A stretch of DNA of 64,000 nucleotides from Candidatus Aenigmatarchaeota archaeon (GTDB lineage: Archaea; Aenigmatarchaeota; Aenigmatarchaeia; GW2011-AR5), in assembly GCA_042584825.1 (NCBI GenBank), contig JBHOSK010000001.1:1777-65776 (forward strand), written 5' to 3'. Positions 47,413-60,565 of the stretch are shown here, piece by piece (position 1 is the first letter of the stretch; every line of letters starts with the position of its first letter). The notes under the pieces were generated by a model. It was not told the DNA's origin and searched no databases. It saw only the letters and a program-made list of their open reading frames with translations. The position numbers were made by a program, and so were the translations under genes.

Positions 47413-47742
47413 TTATGCACCAGGCCTTCTGTTTGATTCGTATTCAGGTCCTTCTACACACAGTCCTGCTCTACATTCAAGATAATCATTACAATAATCA
47501 TATCCAGTTAGCATACCAAAAGCATCCCTGCCGAAATACTGACAACAAGCTTCTCCTTCATAACCACAAGCTTCTCCTCTCTGTGAATCATAGTATTCTT
47601 CATTACCAGAGTTTGGATCTATGTATTCAAAGTTATCAGGATCATCGTAATAATCTCTTGCAGTAGTTCTGCCTGTTTCTGTACAGCCACTTGCGAAAAC
47701 GACCAACACCACAAGTAAAACTAATAAAATTTTTTTATTCAT
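47413..47742 (-). CDS. Small secreted Cys/Tyr/Asp-rich protein with lipobox-like signal peptide
   Basis: MNKKILLVLLVVLVVFASGC lipobox-like N-terminus followed by an acidic, Tyr- and Cys-rich domain. Confidence 0.4.
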   Translation of the reverse strand: MNKKILLVLLVVLVVFASGCTETGRTTARDYYDDPDNFEYIDPNSGNEEYYDSQRGEACGYEGEACCQYFGRDAFGMLTGYDYCNDYLECRAGLCVEGPEYESNRRPGA

Positions 47743-49431: not shown

Positions 49432-51144
<1,713 letters not shown>

Positions 51145-51236
51145 ATTTTTTTATTCAATTTTTCTCATCGGAGTAAAAATTGAAAAATACGACACGTGTG
51201 CAATAAGCTAATTGACTTCCGTCAATTAGCGGATCA

Positions 51237-52190: not shown

Positions 52191-53642
52191 TTACATATCC
52201 ATCCATTTTGGTCCAAACTTATTTTTTTTCTTATCACGTTTTGAATGATATGATCCACCACCAGTATATGCAGGATTTGATGAAGAGTATGTTTGTTCAC
52301 CACCGTATGTCAATCCTTCTGGAACATCAACTTTACCTTTATACCCCTGATCAGTTTCTGATGTTTTAATTTTCGTTGTCTCGGGTTTCCACAATTTGAA
52401 TAATTGTTTATCAAATTCCAAAAAAGCCTTTACCACGTGTTTAATATTAGCCGGCTTAAATCCCGTTTGAAAGCTCCACAAAACCTTTCTTTCTTTTGTA
52501 TCAATTGCATAAAGGTTTGCATCACCACCACCAAAATATAAAACACCGTTCACAATCAACGGCGATGATATTATAATATCACCAGTATCAAATTTCCATA
52601 CAAGTTTTCCATTTTCACCTATACAATACATAGAACCGTCAATAGACGCAACATATATCTTATTGTCATGGAAAATGGGTGTGTTGGTTATTGGACCATC
52701 AGCTTCGAACTTCCAGTTAAGCTTACCATCATAAGTTACAGAGTAAACATGCCTGTCAAAAGAAGAAAAATAAATATTTTTATTATCTAATAGCCCATGA
52801 CTACCAGTCATACCATCTGTTATAAATTTCCATTTAATTTCTCCATTAAGATCAGTACAATAAAAATTATTGTCACGCGAACCAAAATAAACAAAACCGT
52901 TTTCTGTTTTTGGACTTTTTTTATGTGATCGGTCTCTAAAATTCCATATTTCATTACCACGTTCATCAGCAATGACAGGAGAACCAAACCCACCAACAAA
53001 ATTTCCAGCAATAACTTCCCATTTCTTTGCCCCGTCAGGAGACAAACAATAGAATTTTTTATCAAAAGAACCAAAGTAAATATCATTATTTACAACAGCA
53101 GGAGAATTAACAATAGCATCACCAGTAATGAATTCCCATTTTTTCTCACCGCCCGTAGACAAACAATAAAATTTTTTGTCACCAGAACCAAAATATACTC
53201 TATCTTCAACAACACAGGGTGATGAAACTATTCTGTGACCAGTTTTGAATTTCCATAATAACTTCCCTTCAAGTGTCAATGCGTATAGAAAACCATCATA
53301 AGAACCAAAATATACAACACCATCGTGAATAACAGCAGATGAAAATATTACATCCCCAGCTATAAACTTCCACAACTCCTTTCCTGTTTCAGCAGAAAGT
53401 GCATAAAAGTTCTTGTTGCATGCGCCAAAATAAATCACGCCATTATGATAAATAGGAGTAGCCCAAATATTACCGCCTTGCGGCATATCATATGAATTAT
53501 CAAAAGTAGAAAAATCGTGTTTTGGAATTTCTTCCTTCACCCTTTCAATTGCATAATATTTTGTTTCCTCTTCTGGGCTTGGTTGTTCTTCCTTTTGCCT
53601 ACTATCCCTATACCCATCCATAATTATCACATATCCATCCAT
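52191..53642 (-). CDS. PQQ-repeat beta-propeller protein (paralogue 2) with conserved basic Gly/Ser/Tyr-rich C-terminal tail
   Basis: Eight or more repeats of the type LWKFxTG..I.SSP.I.....YFGS.D..FYAL; no N-terminal signal peptide; C-terminal 50 aa nearly identical to the upstream paralogue. Confidence 0.7.
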   Translation of the reverse strand: MDGYVIIMDGYRDSRQKEEQPSPEEETKYYAIERVKEEIPKHDFSTFDNSYDMPQGGNIWATPIYHNGVIYFGACNKNFYALSAETGKELWKFIAGDVIFSSAVIHDGVVYFGSYDGFLYALTLEGKLLWKFKTGHRIVSSPCVVEDRVYFGSGDKKFYCLSTGGEKKWEFITGDAIVNSPAVVNNDIYFGSFDKKFYCLSPDGAKKWEVIAGNFVGGFGSPVIADERGNEIWNFRDRSHKKSPKTENGFVYFGSRDNNFYCTDLNGEIKWKFITDGMTGSHGLLDNKNIYFSSFDRHVYSVTYDGKLNWKFEADGPITNTPIFHDNKIYVASIDGSMYCIGENGKLVWKFDTGDIIISSPLIVNGVLYFGGGDANLYAIDTKERKVLWSFQTGFKPANIKHVVKAFLEFDKQLFKLWKPETTKIKTSETDQGYKGKVDVPEGLTYGGEQTYSSSNPAYTGGGSYHSKRDKKKNKFGPKWMDM

Positions 53643-55057
53643 TTTGGACCAAATTTATTTTTCTTCTTATCACGCTTTGAGTGATATGATCCACCACCAG
53701 TGTATGCAGGATTCGATGATGAATATGTTCGTTCACCACCATATGTCAATCCTTCTGGAACATCAACTTTACCTTTGTATCCACGTTGAGACGCGTCTAC
53801 AGAACCAGAAGCACCACGCGTTTCTGGCTTCCAAACCTTGAATATTTTTTTATCAAACTCTGTTATAACATTAATATTTCTTTTTACATTTGATTGAAAC
53901 CCCTGACCAGTTTGAAATGTCCATAAAACATCACGTGTATCCATATCAAGAGCATATAGAAAAGTATCCATCGATCCAAAGATAATCATATTTTTATGTA
54001 TTATTGGTGAGGAACCGACAATACCACCAGTGTTAAACTTCCACAATGTTTCGCCCTCAGTTGAAACAGCATAAAAATTCTTGTCAAAGGAACCAAAGTA
54101 AACAACGTTATTATGAATAAACGGAGACGATATTATAGGCCCACCCGATTCAAATTTCCATCTAAAATCACCATTAAGTGTTAATGCATACAGATGTCTG
54201 TCAAGTGAACCAAAATACACAGAACCATTAGAAGCAAAAGGCGCAGAAAGAGGCGCACCATCAAACATCTTTTTCCATAACAACTTTCCATCCAATGACA
54301 CAGAATAGATATTTTTATCTAAAGAACCAAACAGAACAGAACCGTCTTTAACTGTTGGTGATTTTTTATGACATCGTTGTCTAAAAGAAGATATTGAGTT
54401 TTTGTCAACAAGAATTGGACTTGTAAATATATGATTAAAAGCAGGGAATTTCCATTGTAAACTTCCATCATCAGACAAACAATACATATTTTTATCCTTT
54501 GATCCTATGAATATCATATCATTTGCAACCGCAGCTGTTGTATCAAACGGTCCATCTGCTTCAAATTTCCACAACAAATCACCATCAAAAGACAGTGAAT
54601 AGAAAAAATTATCACCACCGCCGATGTAAATTCTATCTCCAACAATTACTGGAGAGTCAACAATTTTATTCCCAGTTTTATATTTCCATAATAATTTTCC
54701 ATTATCAGCAGAAAGACAATATATAAAACCATCAAAGGAAGCAACAAAAAGCTTGTCATCAACAATAGTTGGTGAAGATATTACCACTCCACCAGTTCTA
54801 TATTGCCATTTCATTTTTCCATCAAGATCAAGAGCATAAACATATTGATCACACCCACCAAAATATATTGTATCATTATATAGAAACGCGCTTGAACCAA
54901 TACTACCACTTACTTCTATGTCCCATATATCATCAAAACCAGGTTCTTTTGTTTCTTGTTTCGGATCTTCCTTTCTTTTTATAGCATAATATTTTTCTTC
55001 TTTCTCGTTCAACCCCTTCTCTGATTCATCCGATATATCAGATTTATACCCGTCCAT
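53627..55057 (-). CDS. PQQ-repeat beta-propeller protein (paralogue 1) with the same C-terminal tail
   Basis: Same repeat architecture; ends YKGKVDVPEGLTYGGERTYSSSNPAYTGGGSYHSKRDKKKNKFGPKWMDM; its stop region overlaps the start of paralogue 2. Confidence 0.7.
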   Translation of the reverse strand: MDGYKSDISDESEKGLNEKEEKYYAIKRKEDPKQETKEPGFDDIWDIEVSGSIGSSAFLYNDTIYFGGCDQYVYALDLDGKMKWQYRTGGVVISSPTIVDDKLFVASFDGFIYCLSADNGKLLWKYKTGNKIVDSPVIVGDRIYIGGGDNFFYSLSFDGDLLWKFEADGPFDTTAAVANDMIFIGSKDKNMYCLSDDGSLQWKFPAFNHIFTSPILVDKNSISSFRQRCHKKSPTVKDGSVLFGSLDKNIYSVSLDGKLLWKKMFDGAPLSAPFASNGSVYFGSLDRHLYALTLNGDFRWKFESGGPIISSPFIHNNVVYFGSFDKNFYAVSTEGETLWKFNTGGIVGSSPIIHKNMIIFGSMDTFLYALDMDTRDVLWTFQTGQGFQSNVKRNINVITEFDKKIFKVWKPETRGASGSVDASQRGYKGKVDVPEGLTYGGERTYSSSNPAYTGGGSYHSKRDKKKNKFGPKWMDM

Positions 55058-55112: not shown

Positions 55113-55185
55113 GGGCTGATAGATCAATTGGAAGATCGCTACCCTTGCAAGGTAGAGGCTCCGGGTTCGAGTCCCGGTCGGTCCA
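55113..55185 (+). tRNA. tRNA-Ala (anticodon TGC)
   Basis: Acceptor gggctga/tcggtcc, anticodon stem ctacc/ggtag with loop cTTGCaa, T-arm tccgggttcgagtcccgg; sits in the classical archaeal position between 16S and 23S. Confidence 0.8.
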
Positions 55186-55203: not shown

Positions 55204-56001
55204 ATGATAAATATGTCACAAGAAAAAATTTTCATTGAAAACCACGGACAAAAACTTGCAGCTGTGATGCACGTACCAGTTGATCCGACAAAGGTCGGCA
55301 TAATACTTGTACACGGATTCACAAGCAGTAAAAGAGAAGAAGCAGGTGATAAGTATGCTCGTCTTGCAGACGCTTTATGTAATAAAGGGTTTCTTGTACT
55401 TCGTTTTGACTTTCGTGGTCATGGTGAAAGTGAAGGCTTATTTGAAGATACTTCTTTATCATCGGAGTCAAGCGATCTAAACAAAATGATTTCATTCTTA
55501 AAAGAAAATGGGATTGAAAAAATTGGTGTTGTTGGATGCAGTTTAGGAGGATTTGTAACTTTGTTAACCTACCACAACAACATGGATTGTGTTGTGCTTT
55601 GGTACCCTGCTATATTTCTGAAAGAGTCTGACATATTCAAAGAAATGAAGTCTCGTGAAAAAGAACTGGAAAAAGACGGCAAATTATTTGCCAGACAACT
55701 TGAAGGAAAGAAATATTACATAGGTAAACAAATGTGGGAAGAGTGGAATAGCATAGATGTTTTTTCAAAAGTAAAAGATGTAAAATGTCCTATATTATTT
55801 TTAACAGGAAATAAAGATGTGAACGTTGATCCCAGCCAATCAGAAAAAGCTTTTGCTGTTGCTTCTGAGCCCAAAAGGCTCGAAATAATAGATGGTGCAG
55901 CACATGCATGGAGAGACGAAGATTGGAATTTAGTTGAAGGCTATTTCTTGCACGCAACGAAACTTACAGTTGACTGGTTTGTAGAGTGGCTAAAACCCTA
56001 A
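55204..56001 (+). CDS. Alpha/beta-hydrolase (esterase/dienelactone-hydrolase-like)
   Basis: GCSLGG nucleophile elbow, HGFTSS oxyanion region, His near the C-terminus. Confidence 0.7.
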   Translation: MINMSQEKIFIENHGQKLAAVMHVPVDPTKVGIILVHGFTSSKREEAGDKYARLADALCNKGFLVLRFDFRGHGESEGLFEDTSLSSESSDLNKMISFLKENGIEKIGVVGCSLGGFVTLLTYHNNMDCVVLWYPAIFLKESDIFKEMKSREKELEKDGKLFARQLEGKKYYIGKQMWEEWNSIDVFSKVKDVKCPILFLTGNKDVNVDPSQSEKAFAVASEPKRLEIIDGAAHAWRDEDWNLVEGYFLHATKLTVDWFVEWLKP

Positions 56002-56010
56002 CATAAGAAA

Positions 56011-56095
56011 AACCTTTTAATACGGTCGAGCATGAATTCTTAGTATGAAGTTTATGATTATAGCAATAACAATTGCATCTATATTATTAATTAGT
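56011..56095 (+). repeat. Direct repeat copy 1 (upstream region plus signal-peptide coding of the Kazal lipoprotein genes)
   Basis: aaaaccttttaatacggtcgagcatgaattctta..atgaagtttatgattatagcaata recurs at 56771..56855 with 2-3 mismatches. Confidence 0.7.
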
Positions 56096-56770
56096 GGATG
56101 CACTACACAACCCAATAATGATGAAAACAGTGCAGCAAGATCAGCAATGGAAATTGGATGGTTATTTGATATTGATTCTGGTGAAAAATACTTTGTAAGT
56201 ATTGGTTATTATCAAAACATAATGGACAAGGTTTATACACAAGAAGAAATAATTCAACTTAGTGGTAGCTTAGAACCAACAATAACTCACACACAAGAAG
56301 AATGGCTTGCAAGTTGTGAAGAATTACAATTACAAATGTACGTAAGAGAATGTTCAGAAGAAGGATGGCAAACAGAATGTTCTGGAAGTAATGAAAAACC
56401 ATGTCTAAGCTCTTTTGAATATTGGCAAAGCATGTGCGAATCAGCCAATGCTCGTGCAAGAAGTTGCATGGATCATCAATATTGGTATTATGAACCAATC
56501 TTAATTCAATACATGGAAGAAAACGGAATCGAAGGTGAAATAATTGATGCTGTTGTGGCTTATTTCCCAATAACTGGTACAGGTTTACATCCAGGAACTT
56601 ATGGCGATAACAGAATATATTGTCAAGAAGACCAAAGAGGTGTAGGTGCTTGTACAATGGATTACACACCAGTTTGTGGTTTCTCAGATGACGGGTCAGA
56701 AACCTATTCTAATGGCTGTGTTGCATGCACCAACGAGAACGTAAATTACTACATTCCAGGCGAATGCTGA
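56045..56770 (+). CDS. Lipoprotein with C-terminal Kazal-type inhibitor-like domain (paralogue 1)
   Basis: Signal peptide with ISGC lipobox; C-terminal C...YTPVCGFSDDGSETYSNGCVAC...C matches the Kazal Cys/PVCG/TY.N.C spacing. Confidence 0.55.
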   Translation: MKFMIIAITIASILLISGCTTQPNNDENSAARSAMEIGWLFDIDSGEKYFVSIGYYQNIMDKVYTQEEIIQLSGSLEPTITHTQEEWLASCEELQLQMYVRECSEEGWQTECSGSNEKPCLSSFEYWQSMCESANARARSCMDHQYWYYEPILIQYMEENGIEGEIIDAVVAYFPITGTGLHPGTYGDNRIYCQEDQRGVGACTMDYTPVCGFSDDGSETYSNGCVACTNENVNYYIPGEC

Positions 56771-56855
56771 AAACCTTTTAATACGGTCGAGCATGAATTC
56801 TTATCATGAAGTTTATGATTATAGCAATAGCAATTGCGTCTATATTAATAATAAG
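56771..56855 (+). repeat. Direct repeat copy 2 (tandem duplication junction of the Kazal lipoprotein genes)
   Basis: See copy 1. Confidence 0.7.
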
Positions 56856-57207
56856 TGGATGTACTACACAACCCAACAACAATGAAAACAACAGCCCAAC
56901 AAATAACTGCAATTACGATGATCCACACAGGAACTATATAAGCAAAGATCCGGAACGATGTGCAGTAATGGATTTTGGATGTATGCCACCTTCTACAGGA
57001 TTTGACGATGAATGTGGTTGTGGTTGTGAAACCATCGGTGATGAAATACAATGTACAGAAAAAGAGATGGATCCAGCATGTATAGCTATATATGAACCTG
57101 TTTGTGGCTACACAGGCGTTGGTCACAGCTATAATTATCCTAATGAATGTGTAGCATGCAAGATGTCAGCTGTTTTCTATTACATCCCAGGCGAATGCCC
57201 AGAATAA
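56806..57207 (+). CDS. Lipoprotein with C-terminal Kazal-type inhibitor-like domain (paralogue 2)
   Basis: Near-identical signal peptide MKFMIIAIAIASILIISGC; C-terminal C.AIYEPVCGYTGVGHSYNYPNECVAC...C. Confidence 0.55.
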   Translation: MKFMIIAIAIASILIISGCTTQPNNNENNSPTNNCNYDDPHRNYISKDPERCAVMDFGCMPPSTGFDDECGCGCETIGDEIQCTEKEMDPACIAIYEPVCGYTGVGHSYNYPNECVACKMSAVFYYIPGECPE

Positions 57208-57571: not shown

Positions 57572-60565
57572 AAGATAGCTAGCTCCCACGCTATTTGGTG
57601 GATGGATTGGTTCAAGTAGAGATGAAGGTCGTGGTAAGCTGCGATAAGCCTGGGCGAGACGCATGCAGTCTTTGAACTCAGGATTGCCGAATGGGACATC
57701 CCATTTACTTGCAATCGGTGCAAACTGGTTGTAAGGTCGTACGCGGAGAATTGAAACATCTTAGTAACCGCAGGAAGAGAAAGCAAAAGCGATGCCGTCA
57801 GTAAAGGCGATTGAAATCGGCATAGAACAAACCGAATCTGCCTTGAGAGAGAGCAGAGATGTGGGGTTTGGACTTGGGTTGTGCCTAATCAGCCAGTCTG
57901 AAGTGTGCTGGAAAGCACCGCGATAAAGGGTGATAGCCCCGTAAGAGAAAGTTGAAAGGTATATACCAAGTATCCAGAGTATGGCTCATCTGATTTTGAG
58001 TCAGAATACAGGAGACATCTACTCCTAATTCTAAACATAACTTGAGTCCGATAGTGTATTAGTACTGTGAGGGAAATCTGAAAAGTAACCTTAATAGGTG
58101 CTGAAAAGAACCTGAAACCATGTAGCTAGAGTAGGACGGGTAAGGCCATCGCAAGATGGAAGAATCCGTTGTCCGTTTCGAAAAACGGGGCAGGGAGTTT
58201 ATCTTACTGGCAAGGTTAATTTATTGTAGCCATAGGGAAACCGAGTGTGAAAACGCGTTAAGTCAGTAGGGTAAGACCCGAAACCTGACGATCTATTCCT
58301 GGGCAAGATGAAGGCGTGGGAAACCGCGCTCGAGGTCTGCCACTGGTGTTGGTACTAACCACTCAGGTGACCTGGGAATAGGGGTGAAAAGCCAATCGAG
58401 TCGGGTAATAGCTGGTTCCTCCTGAAATGTATCGGAGTACAGCCTCATCTGTATTTGTTAGTGGAGTAGAGCACTGATTAGGTAACCAAGGGGAGAAATC
58501 CCCAGTTATCTTGTCAAACTCCAAACACATTAACATTTGGATGGGAGTGAGGGCGTCTGGAGTAAGTTTGACGTCCGAGAGGGAAACAACCCAGACCGTA
58601 GTTAAGGCCCCCAAATATCGATTAAGTGTAATTGAAAGTTGTCTTGAACCACAGACAATGGGAAGGTTGGCTTAGAAGCAGCCATCCTTTAAACAACGCG
58701 TAACAGCGGACCCATCAAGGTTTGTGGCGCTGAAAATGGACGGGACTAAATCGATTGCCGATACTACGGAGTTATACATCTGTATAACTGGTAAGGAGGC
58801 GTACTGTTAGGGCAGAAGCATCTGCGTAAGTGGGTGTGGACCTTTCAGTAATGAAGATCCTGCCGGGAGTAGCATGCAAGTTGGGTGAGAATCCCAACCA
58901 CCTTAGGGGCCAGGGTTCCCCAGTAAATCTTATATGCTGGGGGTTAGTCGGTCCTAACCGAATCCTTAAGAAGGCATTCGGGAAAGGGAATGGCGTTAAT
59001 ATTCGTCAACTATTTAGTAACTATCTTGTCTGAGACATTTCAGGATATCTTGACTAGGATCATCGTCCTAGTTAAGCATTGAAACATGGGGAGTGGCGTA
59101 ATGTCGAGAACCGTGTGAATGTGCGAATAGCTTGGTGTATGCTGAGTTCAGGAGATTCCTGGAATCCGTGAAAATCAGACAAGTAACTATGCTAAATATC
59201 CGTACTCAGAACCGACACAGGTGCCCCTCGCTGAGTAGGCGAAGGTGTTCGGAATAATCAACCTTAGGGAATTCGGCAAGTTAGCCATGTATCTTAGGTA
59301 CAAGTGGTGCCAGATTCGAGAGAATCTGGTCGCAGTGACAAGGGAAATCCGACTGTTTAACAAAAACGTAGTTGGCTGCTAAGCAGAAATGCCTTGTATA
59401 GCCAATGAGTCGTGGCCACTAGTGGTGTGTGAAAGCCGATTCCAATCGGAAGAAGCCCCACTGTAGGCCGGCCCTAACTCTGAGGGTCTTAAGGTAGCGT
59501 AATCCCTTGCCGATTAATTGTCGGCCCGCATGATAGATTCACGAGATTTCCATTGTCCCAAGGTTGACTCCGGCGAAACTATTGTTCTGGTGATTAGGCC
59601 AGAGACCTCTAGTGGGAAGAGTAGACCCCGTGGAGCTTTACTGCAGGCTGTTGTTGCGGTAGAGATGTGAATGTATAGCGTAGGTAGGAGCTTCGGCACC
59701 AATGTAACACTACCCTTTCATGTCTCTACTGCTCATACGGAGCAAATTCGTAGACATCGACAGTTAGGCAGTTTGACTGGGGCGGTACGCCCTTGAAAGA
59801 ATATCAAGGGCCCTCTAAGCTCAACTTATCAGGGTCAGAAATCCTGAGTTAAGTGTAAGGATAAAAGTTGGGTTGATTGGACTTCTACAAGCATGATGTC
59901 CAACCGCGAAAGCGTGACCTAGCGATACGCAGTTTGGCCTAGATGGCTGGCTGTGACATGAGAAAAGCTACCCCGGGGATAATGGTGTCGTAGCGGGTGA
60001 GAGTTCTTATCCGCGGCTACGAGACTAGTGTCTATTCCTCACTAAAGAGAATGACTAGACAAACATAGGTAAACGTAGCTATAGCGTTGATAGTGTAAAG
60101 TCGATTTTCCTAGCACATCAAGTGCGATGCGGAGAACAAATCGACCCCGCGTGTTGCGGCGTCGCTGTCGGCTCGCCCTCTCCTGGCTGTGCAGCAGCAG
60201 CCAAGGGTACTGGAGTCCACAGGTTAAAAGGGCACGTTAGCTGGGTTCAGAACGGCGTGAGCCAGTTTGGTCTATATCTGCTAGAGGTGTTGCTGTCTGA
60301 GGGGAAGGAAGGATAAGTACGAAAGGAACATCCTTCCGTGGCTTCTGGTTTATCTGTTGTCTGACAAGGCAGTGCAGAGTAGCTACGCCACGTTTGATAA
60401 GTGCTGAAAGCATCTAAGCACGAAGCAGCTCTCGAAAAGAGACAGCTTGGCACCGACAAGACGATCGGTTATGGGACAGGGATGTAAGTATCGAGCTTCG
60501 GCGAGATATTAAGTCCACTGTACCCTACGCCAATGCTAGCCTTTAAAGCGCAGAAGTTGCGGCTT
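57572..60565 (+). rRNA. 23S ribosomal RNA (ends approximate)
   Basis: GGTAAGCTGCGATAAGCCTGGG ... CCGAATGGGACATCCC 5'-domain signatures; sarcin-ricin-loop and PTC-region sequences further on; bracketed by a processing stem. Confidence 0.85.

What the first reader, a model, noticed from the sequence alone, without database searches (positions are those of the whole stretch)
56011..57207. Tandemly duplicated lipoproteins ending in Kazal-type protease-inhibitor-like domains
Two adjacent genes share an ~85-nt repeat covering the upstream region and signal peptide (MKFMIIAI(T/A)IASIL(L/I)ISGCTTQPNN). Both end in a Cys pattern C-x(6,7)-PVCG-x(6,8)-Y-x(3,5)-C-x2-C-x(11,12)-C that matches Kazal domains, e.g. 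YTPVCGFSDDGSETYSNGCVAC.

Kazal domains are very rarely reported in archaea. Surface-anchored protease inhibitors could protect the cell from host or partner proteases.
Basis: partly seen in the sequence, partly recalled or inferred. Interest (0 to 1): 0.6.

Follow-up and report, generated by a model that had tools for sequence, protein, structure and literature searches.

The report
Archaeal surface lipoproteins with Kazal domains
Two neighbouring genes of a tiny DPANN archaeon encode predicted membrane-anchored surface proteins that each end in a genuine Kazal-type serine-protease-inhibitor domain; this domain turns out to be common, though barely described, in DPANN and methane-oxidising archaea.

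Summary
Two same-strand genes (56045-56770, 241 aa; 56806-57207, 133 aa) share a 121-nt repeat (92% identical). It covers a TATA-type promoter, a signal peptide and an I-S-G-C lipobox.

Both genes end in a six-cysteine domain that belongs to the Kazal family:
- Gene 1 passes Pfam Kazal_1 (25.1 bits, cutoff 21). Gene 2 alone does not (17.8).
- A profile of relatives built without either protein scores them 66.9 and 42.9 bits. All 62 profile members hit Kazal_1, and the profile hits solved Kazal inhibitors at E about 1e-10.
- AlphaFold models the gene 1 domain at pLDDT 92 as hairpin, short helix and strand.
- The reactive loop C-T-M-D-Y-T-P-V-C nearly copies ovomucoid third domain (P1 Met). Gene 2 has P1 Ala.

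The genes are mosaics, not simple duplicates. The 5' module is near-identical, the Kazal DNA is 59% identical, and the middles are unrelated unnamed modules.

The domain is not rare in archaeal genomes. A truncated scan of species genomes gave 104 archaeal loci out of 120, and 12 of the 16 bacterial loci were CPR. NCBI and arCOG10350 already name relatives as Kazal inhibitors.

The likeliest function is a surface-tethered canonical inhibitor of foreign subtilisin-, chymotrypsin- or elastase-like proteases. This is inferred, not shown.

The parts
56009..56044 (+). Promoter-like upstream segment of gene 1, the first 36 nt of the 121-nt repeat. The TATA-like TTTTAATA lies at 56015-56022, 30 nt before the ATG, which implies a leaderless or near-leaderless mRNA.
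   Evidence: define the repeat. In one search, TATA-like motifs start at -29 to -32 from the start codon in 16 of 59 long ORFs of the window, and both Kazal genes follow this pattern. The promoter function is inferred.
56045..56770 (+). Gene 1 (NCBI ACFLQN_00385), 241 aa. The order is signal peptide with lipobox, Asn/Thr-rich tether, unnamed N-domain, then a C-terminal Kazal domain.
56045..56101 (+). Signal peptide and lipobox of gene 1: MKFMIIAITIASILL-ISGC, with Cys19 as the predicted lipidated residue.
   Evidence: Read from the sequence. It fits the lipobox [LVI][ASTVI][GAS]C quoted in PMC12462473. Lipidation is not shown.
56144..56590 (+). N-domain of gene 1 (about aa 34-182; starts GWLFDI and contains 6 Cys). 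It belongs to an unnamed family of roughly 140-200 aa, mostly lipobox or membrane-anchored, proteins that lack a Kazal domain. Function unknown.
   Evidence: Homologues P0011 (Woesearchaeota), P0017/P0151, P0018, P0029, P0039 and P0097 are 33-36% identical. There is no Pfam, NCBIfam or PDB sequence match.
56615..56767 (+). Kazal-type domain of gene 1 (aa 191-241). Cys at 193, 203, 211, 225, 228 and 241. The reactive loop is C203-T-M205(P1)-D-Y-T-P-V-C211, and the spacer Asn is N223.
   Evidence: Pfam Kazal_1 25.1 bits against cutoff 21. Leave-out subfamily profile 66.9 bits. PDB Kazal hits. AF2 pLDDT 92.2.
56770..56805 (+). Promoter-like upstream segment of gene 2, the second copy of the repeat. 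TTTTAATA lies at 56776-56783, again 30 nt before the ATG.
56806..57207 (+). Gene 2 (NCBI ACFLQN_00390), 133 aa. The order is signal peptide with lipobox, tether, small Cys-rich module, then a C-terminal Kazal domain.
56806..56862 (+). Signal peptide and lipobox of gene 2: MKFMIIAIAIASILI-ISGC, with Cys19.
   Evidence: It is 21/23 identical to gene 1, and the first 84 coding nt are 90% identical.
56908..57030 (+). Cys-rich middle module of gene 2 (aa 35-75): CNYDDPHRNYISKDPERCAVMDFGCMPPSTGFDDECGCGCE. It is unnamed but recurs in other Kazal-bearing proteins.
   Evidence: A local phmmer search finds it in 14 other Kazal-bearing metagenome proteins above the inclusion threshold (P0034, P0111, P0098, P0044, P0080 and others). 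There is no Pfam match.
57046..57198 (+). Kazal-type domain of gene 2 (aa 81-131). Cys at 83, 92, 100, 115, 118 and 131. The loop is C92-I-A94(P1)-I-Y-E-P-V-C100, and the spacer Asn is N113.
   Evidence: Pfam Kazal_1 17.8 bits, below the cutoff of 21. SPINK1 in the PDB at E 3.8e-4. Leave-out subfamily profile 42.9 bits, end to end.

Best explanation
The two genes encode extracytoplasmic proteins of a DPANN (Aenigmatarchaeota) archaeon. Each is transcribed from its own TATA promoter as a leaderless mRNA. Each is exported by a Sec-type signal peptide and predicted to be lipid-anchored at Cys19 of an I-S-G-C lipobox, then held off the membrane by an Asn/Thr/Pro-rich tether.

Each protein ends in one Kazal-type domain (MEROPS family I1) of a short-helix subtype, with typical spacing C-x9-C-x7-C-x10-C-x2-C-x12-C. 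By analogy with ovomucoid and SPINK1, the loop between Cys2 and Cys3 would insert into the active site of an S1 or S8 serine endopeptidase like a substrate and lock it (the standard, or Laskowski, mechanism).

P1 is Met in gene 1, which suggests subtilisin- or chymotrypsin-like targets. P1 is Ala in gene 2, which suggests elastase-like targets. The pair would therefore cover different, non-trypsin-like enzymes.

No cognate protease lies nearby. The family is concentrated in surface lipoproteins of organisms that live attached to other cells. The most likely role is therefore to shield the cell surface from proteases of hosts, partners or the surrounding community.

What is shown: the gene structure, the repeat, Kazal family membership by sequence, the predicted fold, the conserved loop scaffold and the distribution. 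What is inferred: lipidation, disulfide pairing, inhibitory activity, target classes and the biological role.
For: Family membership:
- Pfam Kazal_1 is above cutoff for gene 1.
- A leave-out profile scores gene 1 66.9 bits and gene 2 42.9 bits, aligned across all six Cys.
- 62 of 62 subfamily domains hit Kazal_1 and 48 hit Kazal_2.
- Relatives align to Kazal_1 over 1-49/49 and to Kazal_2 over 3-48/48.
- The profile hits ovomucoid, PSTI/SPINK1, the sea-anemone elastase inhibitor and LDTI at E 4e-10 to 1.5e-7. Several of these alignments run through the last Cys.

Fold: AF2 with 62 sequences gives pLDDT 92.2, with a hairpin at 24-28/31-35, a helix at 38-43 and a strand at 47-52. The best Foldseek PDB hit is a Kazal inhibitor, 2n17; the Kazal-type ascidian trypsin inhibitor 1iw4 has TM 0.50 and rmsd 2.9 A.

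Inhibitor-like loop:
- Gene 1's ACTMDYTPVCG aligns with silver-pheasant ovomucoid ACTMEYRPLCG.
- Across 239 domains, P2 Thr (193/239), P2' Tyr (210), Pro-Val (232 each) and the spacer Asn (220) are conserved.
- P1 is variable (M83, L37, R28, A24, K21, E15) and so is P3'. This is the pattern known for functional Kazal inhibitors (established knowledge, Laskowski's ovomucoid work).

Surface anchoring: the lipobox is read from the sequence. A crude test finds a lipobox in 70 of 108 relatives. Lipoproteins are prevalent in DPANN archaea (PMC12462473).

Native gene: GC content of 0.32-0.40 matches the neighbouring genes. The locus sits between a tRNA and the 23S rRNA gene.

No linked protease: no S1 or S8 catalytic motifs were found in the window or in 123 related loci.

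Distribution: 104 of 120 genome loci are archaeal, from DPANN lineages, Methanosarcinales and ANME-1. Twelve of the 16 bacterial loci are CPR.
Against: - No activity, expression or lipidation data exist.
- Gene 2 is below the Pfam cutoff and has Ile rather than Thr at P2 (9 of 239 domains) and Ile at P1'. It may be a weak or non-canonical inhibitor.
- Some Kazal-like domains, such as those of follistatin, agrin and SPARC, do not inhibit proteases.
- Only 64 kb of the genome was inspected, and the protease check was a simple motif search.
- It is unknown how an anaerobic DPANN cell would oxidise six extracytoplasmic cysteines.
Confidence: 0.6

Rival explanations
1. The Kazal-like domains are non-inhibitory binding modules, like the follistatin, agrin or SPARC type. 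They would be one of several small disulfide-rich modules that DPANN, ANME and CPR cells mount on lipoproteins to attach to or recognise a host or partner cell surface.
For: In relatives the domain is shuffled with several other unnamed Cys-rich modules and repeated up to 6-10 times per protein. It is enriched in lineages that live attached to other cells. No protease gene is linked. The subfamily profile also hits the non-inhibitory Kazal-like repeats of agrin.
Against: The residues that build a canonical inhibitory loop are conserved: P3 Cys, P2 Thr, P2' Tyr, Pro-Val, and the spacer Asn that braces the loop. P1 varies freely among residues typical of protease specificity (M, L, R, A, K). Gene 1's loop is almost that of ovomucoid third domain. 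Tandem arrays are also typical of true multi-headed Kazal inhibitors, such as ovomucoid itself.
Confidence: 0.2
2. The proteins are true inhibitors, but their target is the organism's own secreted or surface serine protease. They would keep it inactive at the producer's surface rather than defend against foreign enzymes.
For: Only 64 kb of a contig of at least 144 kb was seen, so an S8 or S1 protease may be encoded elsewhere (one search gives the contig length). Inhibitors directed at an organism's own proteases are known from other systems (own knowledge).
Against: No S1 or S8 signature occurs in the window or within about 4 kb of the homologues in 123 other loci. Self-directed protease and inhibitor pairs are often linked. 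The variable P1 across paralogues and species suggests diverse external targets.
Confidence: 0.13
3. The cysteine pattern is a chance resemblance, and the domains are not Kazal homologues.
For: Gene 2 alone is below the Pfam gathering score, and the Pfam alignment covers only positions 1-34 of 49. The Foldseek E-values are not significant.
Against: Gene 1 exceeds the gathering score. The leave-out profile gives E 6.6e-17 and 2e-9 for a search space set to one million sequences. The profile matches 63 distinct solved chains at E up to 0.01, and every one of the 60 listed is a Kazal or Kazal-repeat protein. All 62 of 62 relatives hit Kazal_1, some over the whole model.
Confidence: 0.02

Closest known systems
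Classical Kazal inhibitors: avian ovomucoid third domain (OMTKY3, OMSVP3) and pancreatic secretory trypsin inhibitor (SPINK1); MEROPS I1, Pfam PF00050
   Same: Six Cys with identical C2-x7-C3 and C4-x2-C5 spacing. The reactive loop C-T-M-D-Y-T-P-V-C compares with C-T-M-E-Y-R-P-L-C. The T-Y-x-N-x-C motif with the loop-bracing Asn is present. The predicted fold is a hairpin plus helix plus strand.
   Different: C5-C6 is 12 residues rather than about 17, giving a 6-residue helix. C3-C4 is 13-14 residues rather than 10. The C-terminus is [YW]-x-x-G-E-C. The domain sits at the end of a lipobox protein rather than being a free secreted protein. The source is an archaeon.
Short 'non-classical' Kazal inhibitors: leech-derived tryptase inhibitor (1an1, 2kmo) and the sea-anemone elastase inhibitor (1y1b)
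   Same: The subfamily profile aligns through the last Cys with almost no gaps: profile positions 14-52 against residues 3-40 of LDTI, and 15-52 against 6-48 of the elastase inhibitor. The compact C-terminal half therefore has precedent among proven inhibitors.
   Different: Those proteins have a short or shifted C1-C2 segment and come from animals. The window proteins keep a long C1-x8/9-C2 segment.
Archaeal proteins already annotated as Kazal-type: arCOG10350 (PMC6697440); NCBI 'Kazal-type serine protease inhibitor' of a Ca. Nanoarchaeia archaeon (P0162); 'Kazal-type serine protease inhibitor domain-containing protein [archaeon]' (P0020)
   Same: The same subfamily and a similar Cys spacing, with membrane-anchor or lipobox N-termini. 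P0162 lies among histone, Cdc6, PolD and eIF5A genes, so it is truly archaeal.
   Different: P0162 is a 91-aa single-domain protein, while P0020 has three domains by the Cys-pattern count. Neither has gene 1's N-domain or gene 2's CGCGC module. None has been characterised experimentally; the only literature found mentions them in passing.
Multi-Kazal lipoproteins of ANME-1 (Methanophagales) and Methanosarcinales (P0004/P0152 with 6 domains; P0006 with 4)
   Same: These are among the top hits to the gene 1 domain (stretches 45-51% identical). They have the same C-x9-C-x7-C-x10-C-x2-C-x12-C module, and P0004 has an I-S-G-C lipobox.
   Different: They carry tandem arrays of 4-6 domains rather than a single C-terminal domain.
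Functional analogues at cell-cell interfaces: oomycete EPI1/EPI10 Kazal inhibitors of host subtilases, and bacterial periplasmic ecotin (own knowledge, not tested here)
   Same: The proposed logic is the same: an extracellular or envelope-located canonical inhibitor that neutralises another organism's serine proteases.
   Different: EPI proteins are secreted by eukaryotes. Ecotin has a different fold (MEROPS I11). No target is known for the archaeal proteins.

Membership tests
Kazal-type inhibitor domain (MEROPS I1; Pfam PF00050/PF07648) | Significant match to the curated family profile | tested here: met
   Gene 1: Kazal_1 25.1 bits against gathering score 21, and 27.7 bits for the domain alone. 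Gene 2 alone scores 17.8 bits, below cutoff. It scores 42.9 bits against a subfamily profile built without it. All 62 members of that profile hit Kazal_1, and the profile hits solved Kazals at about 1e-10.
Kazal-type inhibitor domain (MEROPS I1; Pfam PF00050/PF07648) | Six cysteines with C2-x7-C3 and C4-x2-C5 spacing | tested here: met
   Gene 1 spacing is 9-7-13-2-12 and gene 2 is 8-7-14-2-12, read from the sequence. The subfamily mode is 9-7-10-2-12. C5-C6 is shorter than in classical Kazals but is matched by LDTI and the anemone elastase inhibitor alignments.
Kazal-type inhibitor domain (MEROPS I1; Pfam PF00050/PF07648) | Fold: beta-hairpin, alpha-helix carrying C4 and C5, and a third strand | tested here: inconclusive
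Kazal-type inhibitor domain (MEROPS I1; Pfam PF00050/PF07648) | Disulfide pairing 1-5, 2-4, 3-6 | not testable with these tools
The pairing is inferred only from the column-by-column alignment of all six Cys with those of solved Kazals.
Kazal-type inhibitor domain (MEROPS I1; Pfam PF00050/PF07648) | Canonical reactive loop: P3 Cys, P2 Thr, exposed P1, P2' Tyr, and a spacer Asn bracing the loop | tested here: met
   Gene 1 has C203-T-M-D-Y-T-P-V-C211 and N223, nearly identical to ovomucoid third domain. The scaffold is conserved and P1 is variable across 239 domains. Gene 2 keeps Cys, Tyr, Pro-Val and Asn but has Ile at P2, so it meets the feature only partly.
Kazal-type inhibitor domain (MEROPS I1; Pfam PF00050/PF07648) | Tight-binding inhibition of S1 or S8 serine peptidases | not testable with these tools
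   This needs recombinant protein and enzyme assays.
Prokaryotic lipobox lipoproteins (archaeal AliA/AliB-dependent pathway) | N-terminal signal peptide ending in [LVI][ASTVI][GAS]-C | tested here: met
   MK-FMIIAITIASILL-I-S-G-C19 in gene 1 and the equivalent in gene 2. The motif definition comes from PMC12462473. A third lipobox protein in the window uses A-S-G-C.
Prokaryotic lipobox lipoproteins (archaeal AliA/AliB-dependent pathway) | Presence of the lipidation machinery (AliA, arCOG02177) in the genome, and actual lipid modification | not tested
   The window was not searched for AliA. PMC12462473 reports AliA in DPANN 'with some gaps'. Lipidation itself needs biochemistry.

The most novel reading that the evidence does not exclude
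The short-helix Kazal module may be a lineage-enriched 'surface armour' of cells that live attached to other cells: DPANN archaea, CPR/Patescibacteria and consortium-forming ANME/Methanosarcinales. It would be mounted on lipoproteins, singly or in arrays, with fast-evolving P1 residues, to neutralise host or partner serine proteases. That would be an undescribed, widespread molecular component of episymbiosis. It would also mean the Kazal fold has a deep prokaryotic history rather than being a sporadic eukaryote-to-archaeon transfer.
Probability: 0.25. Interest if true: 0.65.

Novelty: new member of a known kind. Interest (0 to 1): 0.42.

Why it matters
Kazal inhibitors are textbook animal proteins, and their archaeal counterparts have never been studied. 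One recent structure-based survey listed DPANN Kazal assignments as unverified singletons that might be artefacts (PMC13607799).

This locus and its relatives show the assignment is real. The genes are native to archaeal chromosomes, and the family is large: 604 cluster representatives at E up to 1e-3.

If the domains do inhibit proteases, they point to proteolytic conflict at the surface of ultra-small symbionts. They would also offer small, stable, easily expressed inhibitors with natural P1 diversity.

For this window specifically, the result is a solid functional annotation of two 'hypothetical proteins', not a new kind of system.

Tried and rejected
- Single-sequence AlphaFold of full-length gene 1 gave pLDDT 34.7 and was useless.
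- Word-indexed homologue searches with either full protein found nothing beyond the window's own two proteins. The exhaustive search was needed.
I replaced it with a degenerate DNA pattern for C-T-x2-Y-x-P-V-C-G-x9-C-x-A-C.
- The look-up of encoding contigs has no record of gene 1.
- Foldseek against the PDB and against viral structures gave no significant E-values.
- NCBIfam gave only weak hits to lipoprotein signal peptides.
- The N-domain profile found nothing in the PDB or Pfam.
- Recent horizontal transfer is rejected: the GC content of the two genes equals that of their neighbours, and relatives sit among archaeal housekeeping genes.
- The upstream alpha/beta-hydrolase (55204-56001) is rejected as a cognate target. 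It has no signal peptide and belongs to a fold class that Kazal domains are not known to inhibit (own knowledge).
- A simple recent tandem duplication is rejected. The Kazal DNA is 59% identical, against 90-100% for the 5' module.
Full report
**What is there.**
The region holds two same-strand ORFs: 56045-56770 (241 aa) and 56806-57207 (133 aa). The window is archaeal. An archaeal SSU rRNA gene lies at 49432-51145, an archaeal LSU rRNA gene at 57574-60544, and a tRNA at 55113-55185. NCBI holds the two proteins as hypothetical proteins ACFLQN_00385 and ACFLQN_00390 of a Candidatus Aenigmatarchaeota archaeon, on a 143,942-bp contig. GC content across the two genes is 0.32-0.40, the same as the flanking genes. 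Nothing suggests a recent foreign insertion.

**The repeat.**
- A direct repeat of 121 nt at 92% identity joins 56009-56129 to 56770-56890.
- A 32-nt stretch of its upstream part is identical in the two copies and occurs nowhere else in the window.
- It contains TTTTAATA starting 30 nt before each ATG. Across the window, TATA-like motifs start at -29 to -32 in 16 of 59 long ORFs. This organism therefore typically makes leaderless mRNAs, and each of the two genes carries its own standard promoter (inferred).
- The first 84 coding nucleotides are 90% identical. The Kazal-coding parts are only 59% identical, and 10 of the 26 shared residues use different codons.
- The middles of the two proteins are unrelated.
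- The pair is therefore a mosaic: a recently homogenised or swapped 5' module (promoter, signal peptide and tether), different passenger domains, and anciently diverged Kazal domains. Gene conversion is the simplest explanation, but it is inferred.

**Export and anchoring.**
Both proteins start MKFMIIAI(T/A)IASIL(L/I)-ISGC. I-S-G-C fits the lipobox [L/V/I][A/S/T/V/I][G/A/S]C as quoted in PMC12462473. That paper also reports that predicted lipoproteins are prevalent in Euryarchaeota and DPANN archaea, and that the lipidation factor AliA occurs in DPANN. A third lipobox protein lies at 47413-47742 on the minus strand. Lipidation itself is not shown.

**The C-terminal domains are Kazal domains.**
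- Pfam Kazal_1 scores gene 1 at 25.1 bits (gathering 21, E 1.8e-5) and gene 2 at 17.8 bits, below the cutoff.
- Direct phmmer against PDB sequences finds only Kazal inhibitors at the top. For gene 1 the best is PSTI variant 4 at E 0.0034, and the ovomucoid alignment reads 'actm+y p+cg'. For gene 2 the best is SPINK1 at E 3.8e-4.
- An exhaustive phmmer search of 1.84 billion cluster representatives found 604 proteins at E up to 1e-3. In nearly all of them the match is to residues 190-241, often repeated up to 10 times per protein.
- I extracted 239 near-full-length domains. Their dominant spacing is C-x9-C-x7-C-x10-C-x2-C-x12-C.
- In a 62-sequence alignment (A1), all 62 members hit Kazal_1 and 48 hit Kazal_2.
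- The A1 profile hits ovomucoid, PSTI/SPINK1, rhodniin, infestin, LDTI, the anemone elastase inhibitor, PEC-60, agrin and RECK. Single-domain inhibitors score around E 4e-10 to 1e-7, and several alignments run through the sixth Cys.
- Some relatives align to Kazal_1 over 1-49/49 and to Kazal_2 over 3-48/48.
- A profile rebuilt without the two window domains scores gene 1 at 66.9 bits and gene 2 at 42.9 bits. Both align end to end over all six Cys.
- Membership by sequence is therefore firm for both genes.

**Structure.**

**Does it look like an inhibitor?**
- Gene 1's loop C203-T-M205-D-Y-T-P-V-C211 matches ovomucoid third domain C-T-(L/M)-E-Y-R-P-L-C. This places Met205 at P1.
- Across the 239 domains, P2 Thr (193), P2' Tyr (210), Pro (232), Val (232) and the Asn of T-Y-x-N-x-C (220) are conserved. 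In ovomucoid that Asn braces the loop.
- P1 varies (M83, L37, R28, A24, K21, E15) and so does P3'.
- A conserved scaffold with hypervariable contact residues is the classical signature of functional Kazal inhibitors (established knowledge).
- Gene 2 has C92-I-A94-I-Y-E-P-V-C100. It keeps Tyr, Pro-Val and Asn113 but has Ile at P2, which is rare in the family, and Ala at P1.
- From what is known of P1 preferences, I expect gene 1 to target subtilisin- or chymotrypsin-like enzymes and gene 2 to target elastase-like enzymes. Neither should target trypsin-like enzymes. This is inference.

**The other domains.**
- Gene 1 residues 34-182 (starting GWLFDI, with six Cys) form a separate family. Its stand-alone members of 143-201 aa lack a Kazal domain, and most have a lipobox or a membrane anchor; one comes from a Woesearchaeota archaeon.
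- This family matches nothing in Pfam, NCBIfam or PDB sequences. Its function is unknown.
- Gene 2 residues 35-75 (…YISKDPERC…FDDECGCGCE) recur in 14 other Kazal-bearing metagenome proteins and also have no Pfam name.
- In relatives, Kazal modules are combined with further unnamed Cys-rich modules.

**Distribution.**
- 104 loci are archaeal: mainly Woesearchaeota, Nanoarchaeia/Nanobdellota and Methanosarcinales, with smaller numbers from Methanophagales (ANME-1), Undinarchaeota, Altiarchaeota, Micrarchaeota and Aenigmatarchaeota.
- 16 loci are bacterial. Twelve of these are named CPR lineages.
- Top hits of the unbiased protein search also map to archaeal genomes.
- One relative, named 'Kazal-type serine protease inhibitor' by NCBI, sits between Cdc6, histone, PolD and eIF5A genes of a Nanoarchaeia MAG.
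- The domain is therefore common in these archaea.
- The literature hardly covers it. arCOG10350 is mentioned for a sponge thaumarchaeon (PMC6697440). DPANN Kazal assignments are listed as unverified singletons (PMC13607799). No other paper in the library combines 'Kazal' and 'DPANN'.
- Because the scan was truncated and not normalised, the apparent enrichment is a lead, not a measurement.

**Context and function.**
- Neighbouring genes are an unrelated cytoplasmic alpha/beta-hydrolase, two PQQ-like beta-propeller proteins, a SET-domain protein, a cupin, RtcB and regulators.
- No S1 or S8 catalytic signature occurs in the window or in 123 related loci. This was a crude motif test.
- The best-supported reading (confidence about 0.6) is two lipid-anchored surface proteins. 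Each would present a canonical Kazal inhibitor of different specificity, directed at proteases made by other organisms.
- The main rival (0.2) is a non-inhibitory binding module of the follistatin or agrin type.
- Control of the organism's own protease cannot be excluded (0.13).
- A chance resemblance is excluded.

**Verdict.**
This is a new member of a known kind. The N-domain fusion and the DPANN/ANME/CPR distribution are the parts worth following up.

Noticed in passing
window 49432-51145 (+): The archaeal SSU rRNA match spans 1714 nt against a 1478-nt Rfam model, so about 236 nt are extra (an insertion or intron?). The SSU and LSU genes are unlinked. They lie 6.4 kb apart, with six protein genes and a tRNA between them.
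   Followed up: no
window 56144-56590 (+); relatives P0011, P0017/P0151, P0018, P0029, P0039, P0097: The N-domain of gene 1 defines an unnamed family of roughly 140-200 aa. Most members have a lipobox or membrane anchor, and the only named one is from Woesearchaeota. It has a GWLFE(V/I) motif, six conserved Cys and a C-terminal NGI.G.I..YV..F.I motif. It matches nothing in Pfam, NCBIfam or the PDB.
   Followed up: partly
window 56908-57030 (+); relatives P0034, P0044, P0080, P0098, P0111 and others: A small Cys-rich module, C-x-Y…Y[IV]SKDPE-x-C…F-x2-[EA]-C-G-C-G-C, recurs next to Kazal domains in 14 other metagenome proteins. It has no Pfam family.
   Followed up: partly
loci L004-L123 (for example L005, L009, L019, L026, L049, L072, L115): In DPANN, ANME and CPR relatives the Kazal module is shuffled with other recurring unnamed modules on lipoproteins. 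Examples are 'NFEECVAAGNPVMESYPRQC', 'IANPAS..C' and 'IGG.KDEHGCL.AAGYSW'. This looks like a combinatorial set of small disulfide-rich surface domains.
   Followed up: no
window, upstream of 59 long ORFs: TATA-like motifs (TTTWAWA or TTTTAAW) start at -29 to -32 from the start codon in 16 of 59 ORFs. This indicates that leaderless transcripts are common in this genome.
   Followed up: partly
window 52191-53642 (-) and 53627-55057 (-): Two tandem, overlapping genes encode PQQ/BamB-like beta-propeller proteins of 483 and 476 aa without an obvious signal peptide.
   Followed up: no
window 47413-47742 (-): A third lipobox protein (MNKKILLVLLVVLVVFASGCTETG…, 109 aa) with no Pfam match.
   Followed up: no
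proteins P0003, P0008, P0014, P0046, P0047 (one search hits): Some strong hits carry many copies of the same short-helix Kazal module but have non-lipobox signal peptides that look eukaryotic. No taxon names were available. Whether the archaeal and these possibly protist domains are related by transfer is open.
   Followed up: no
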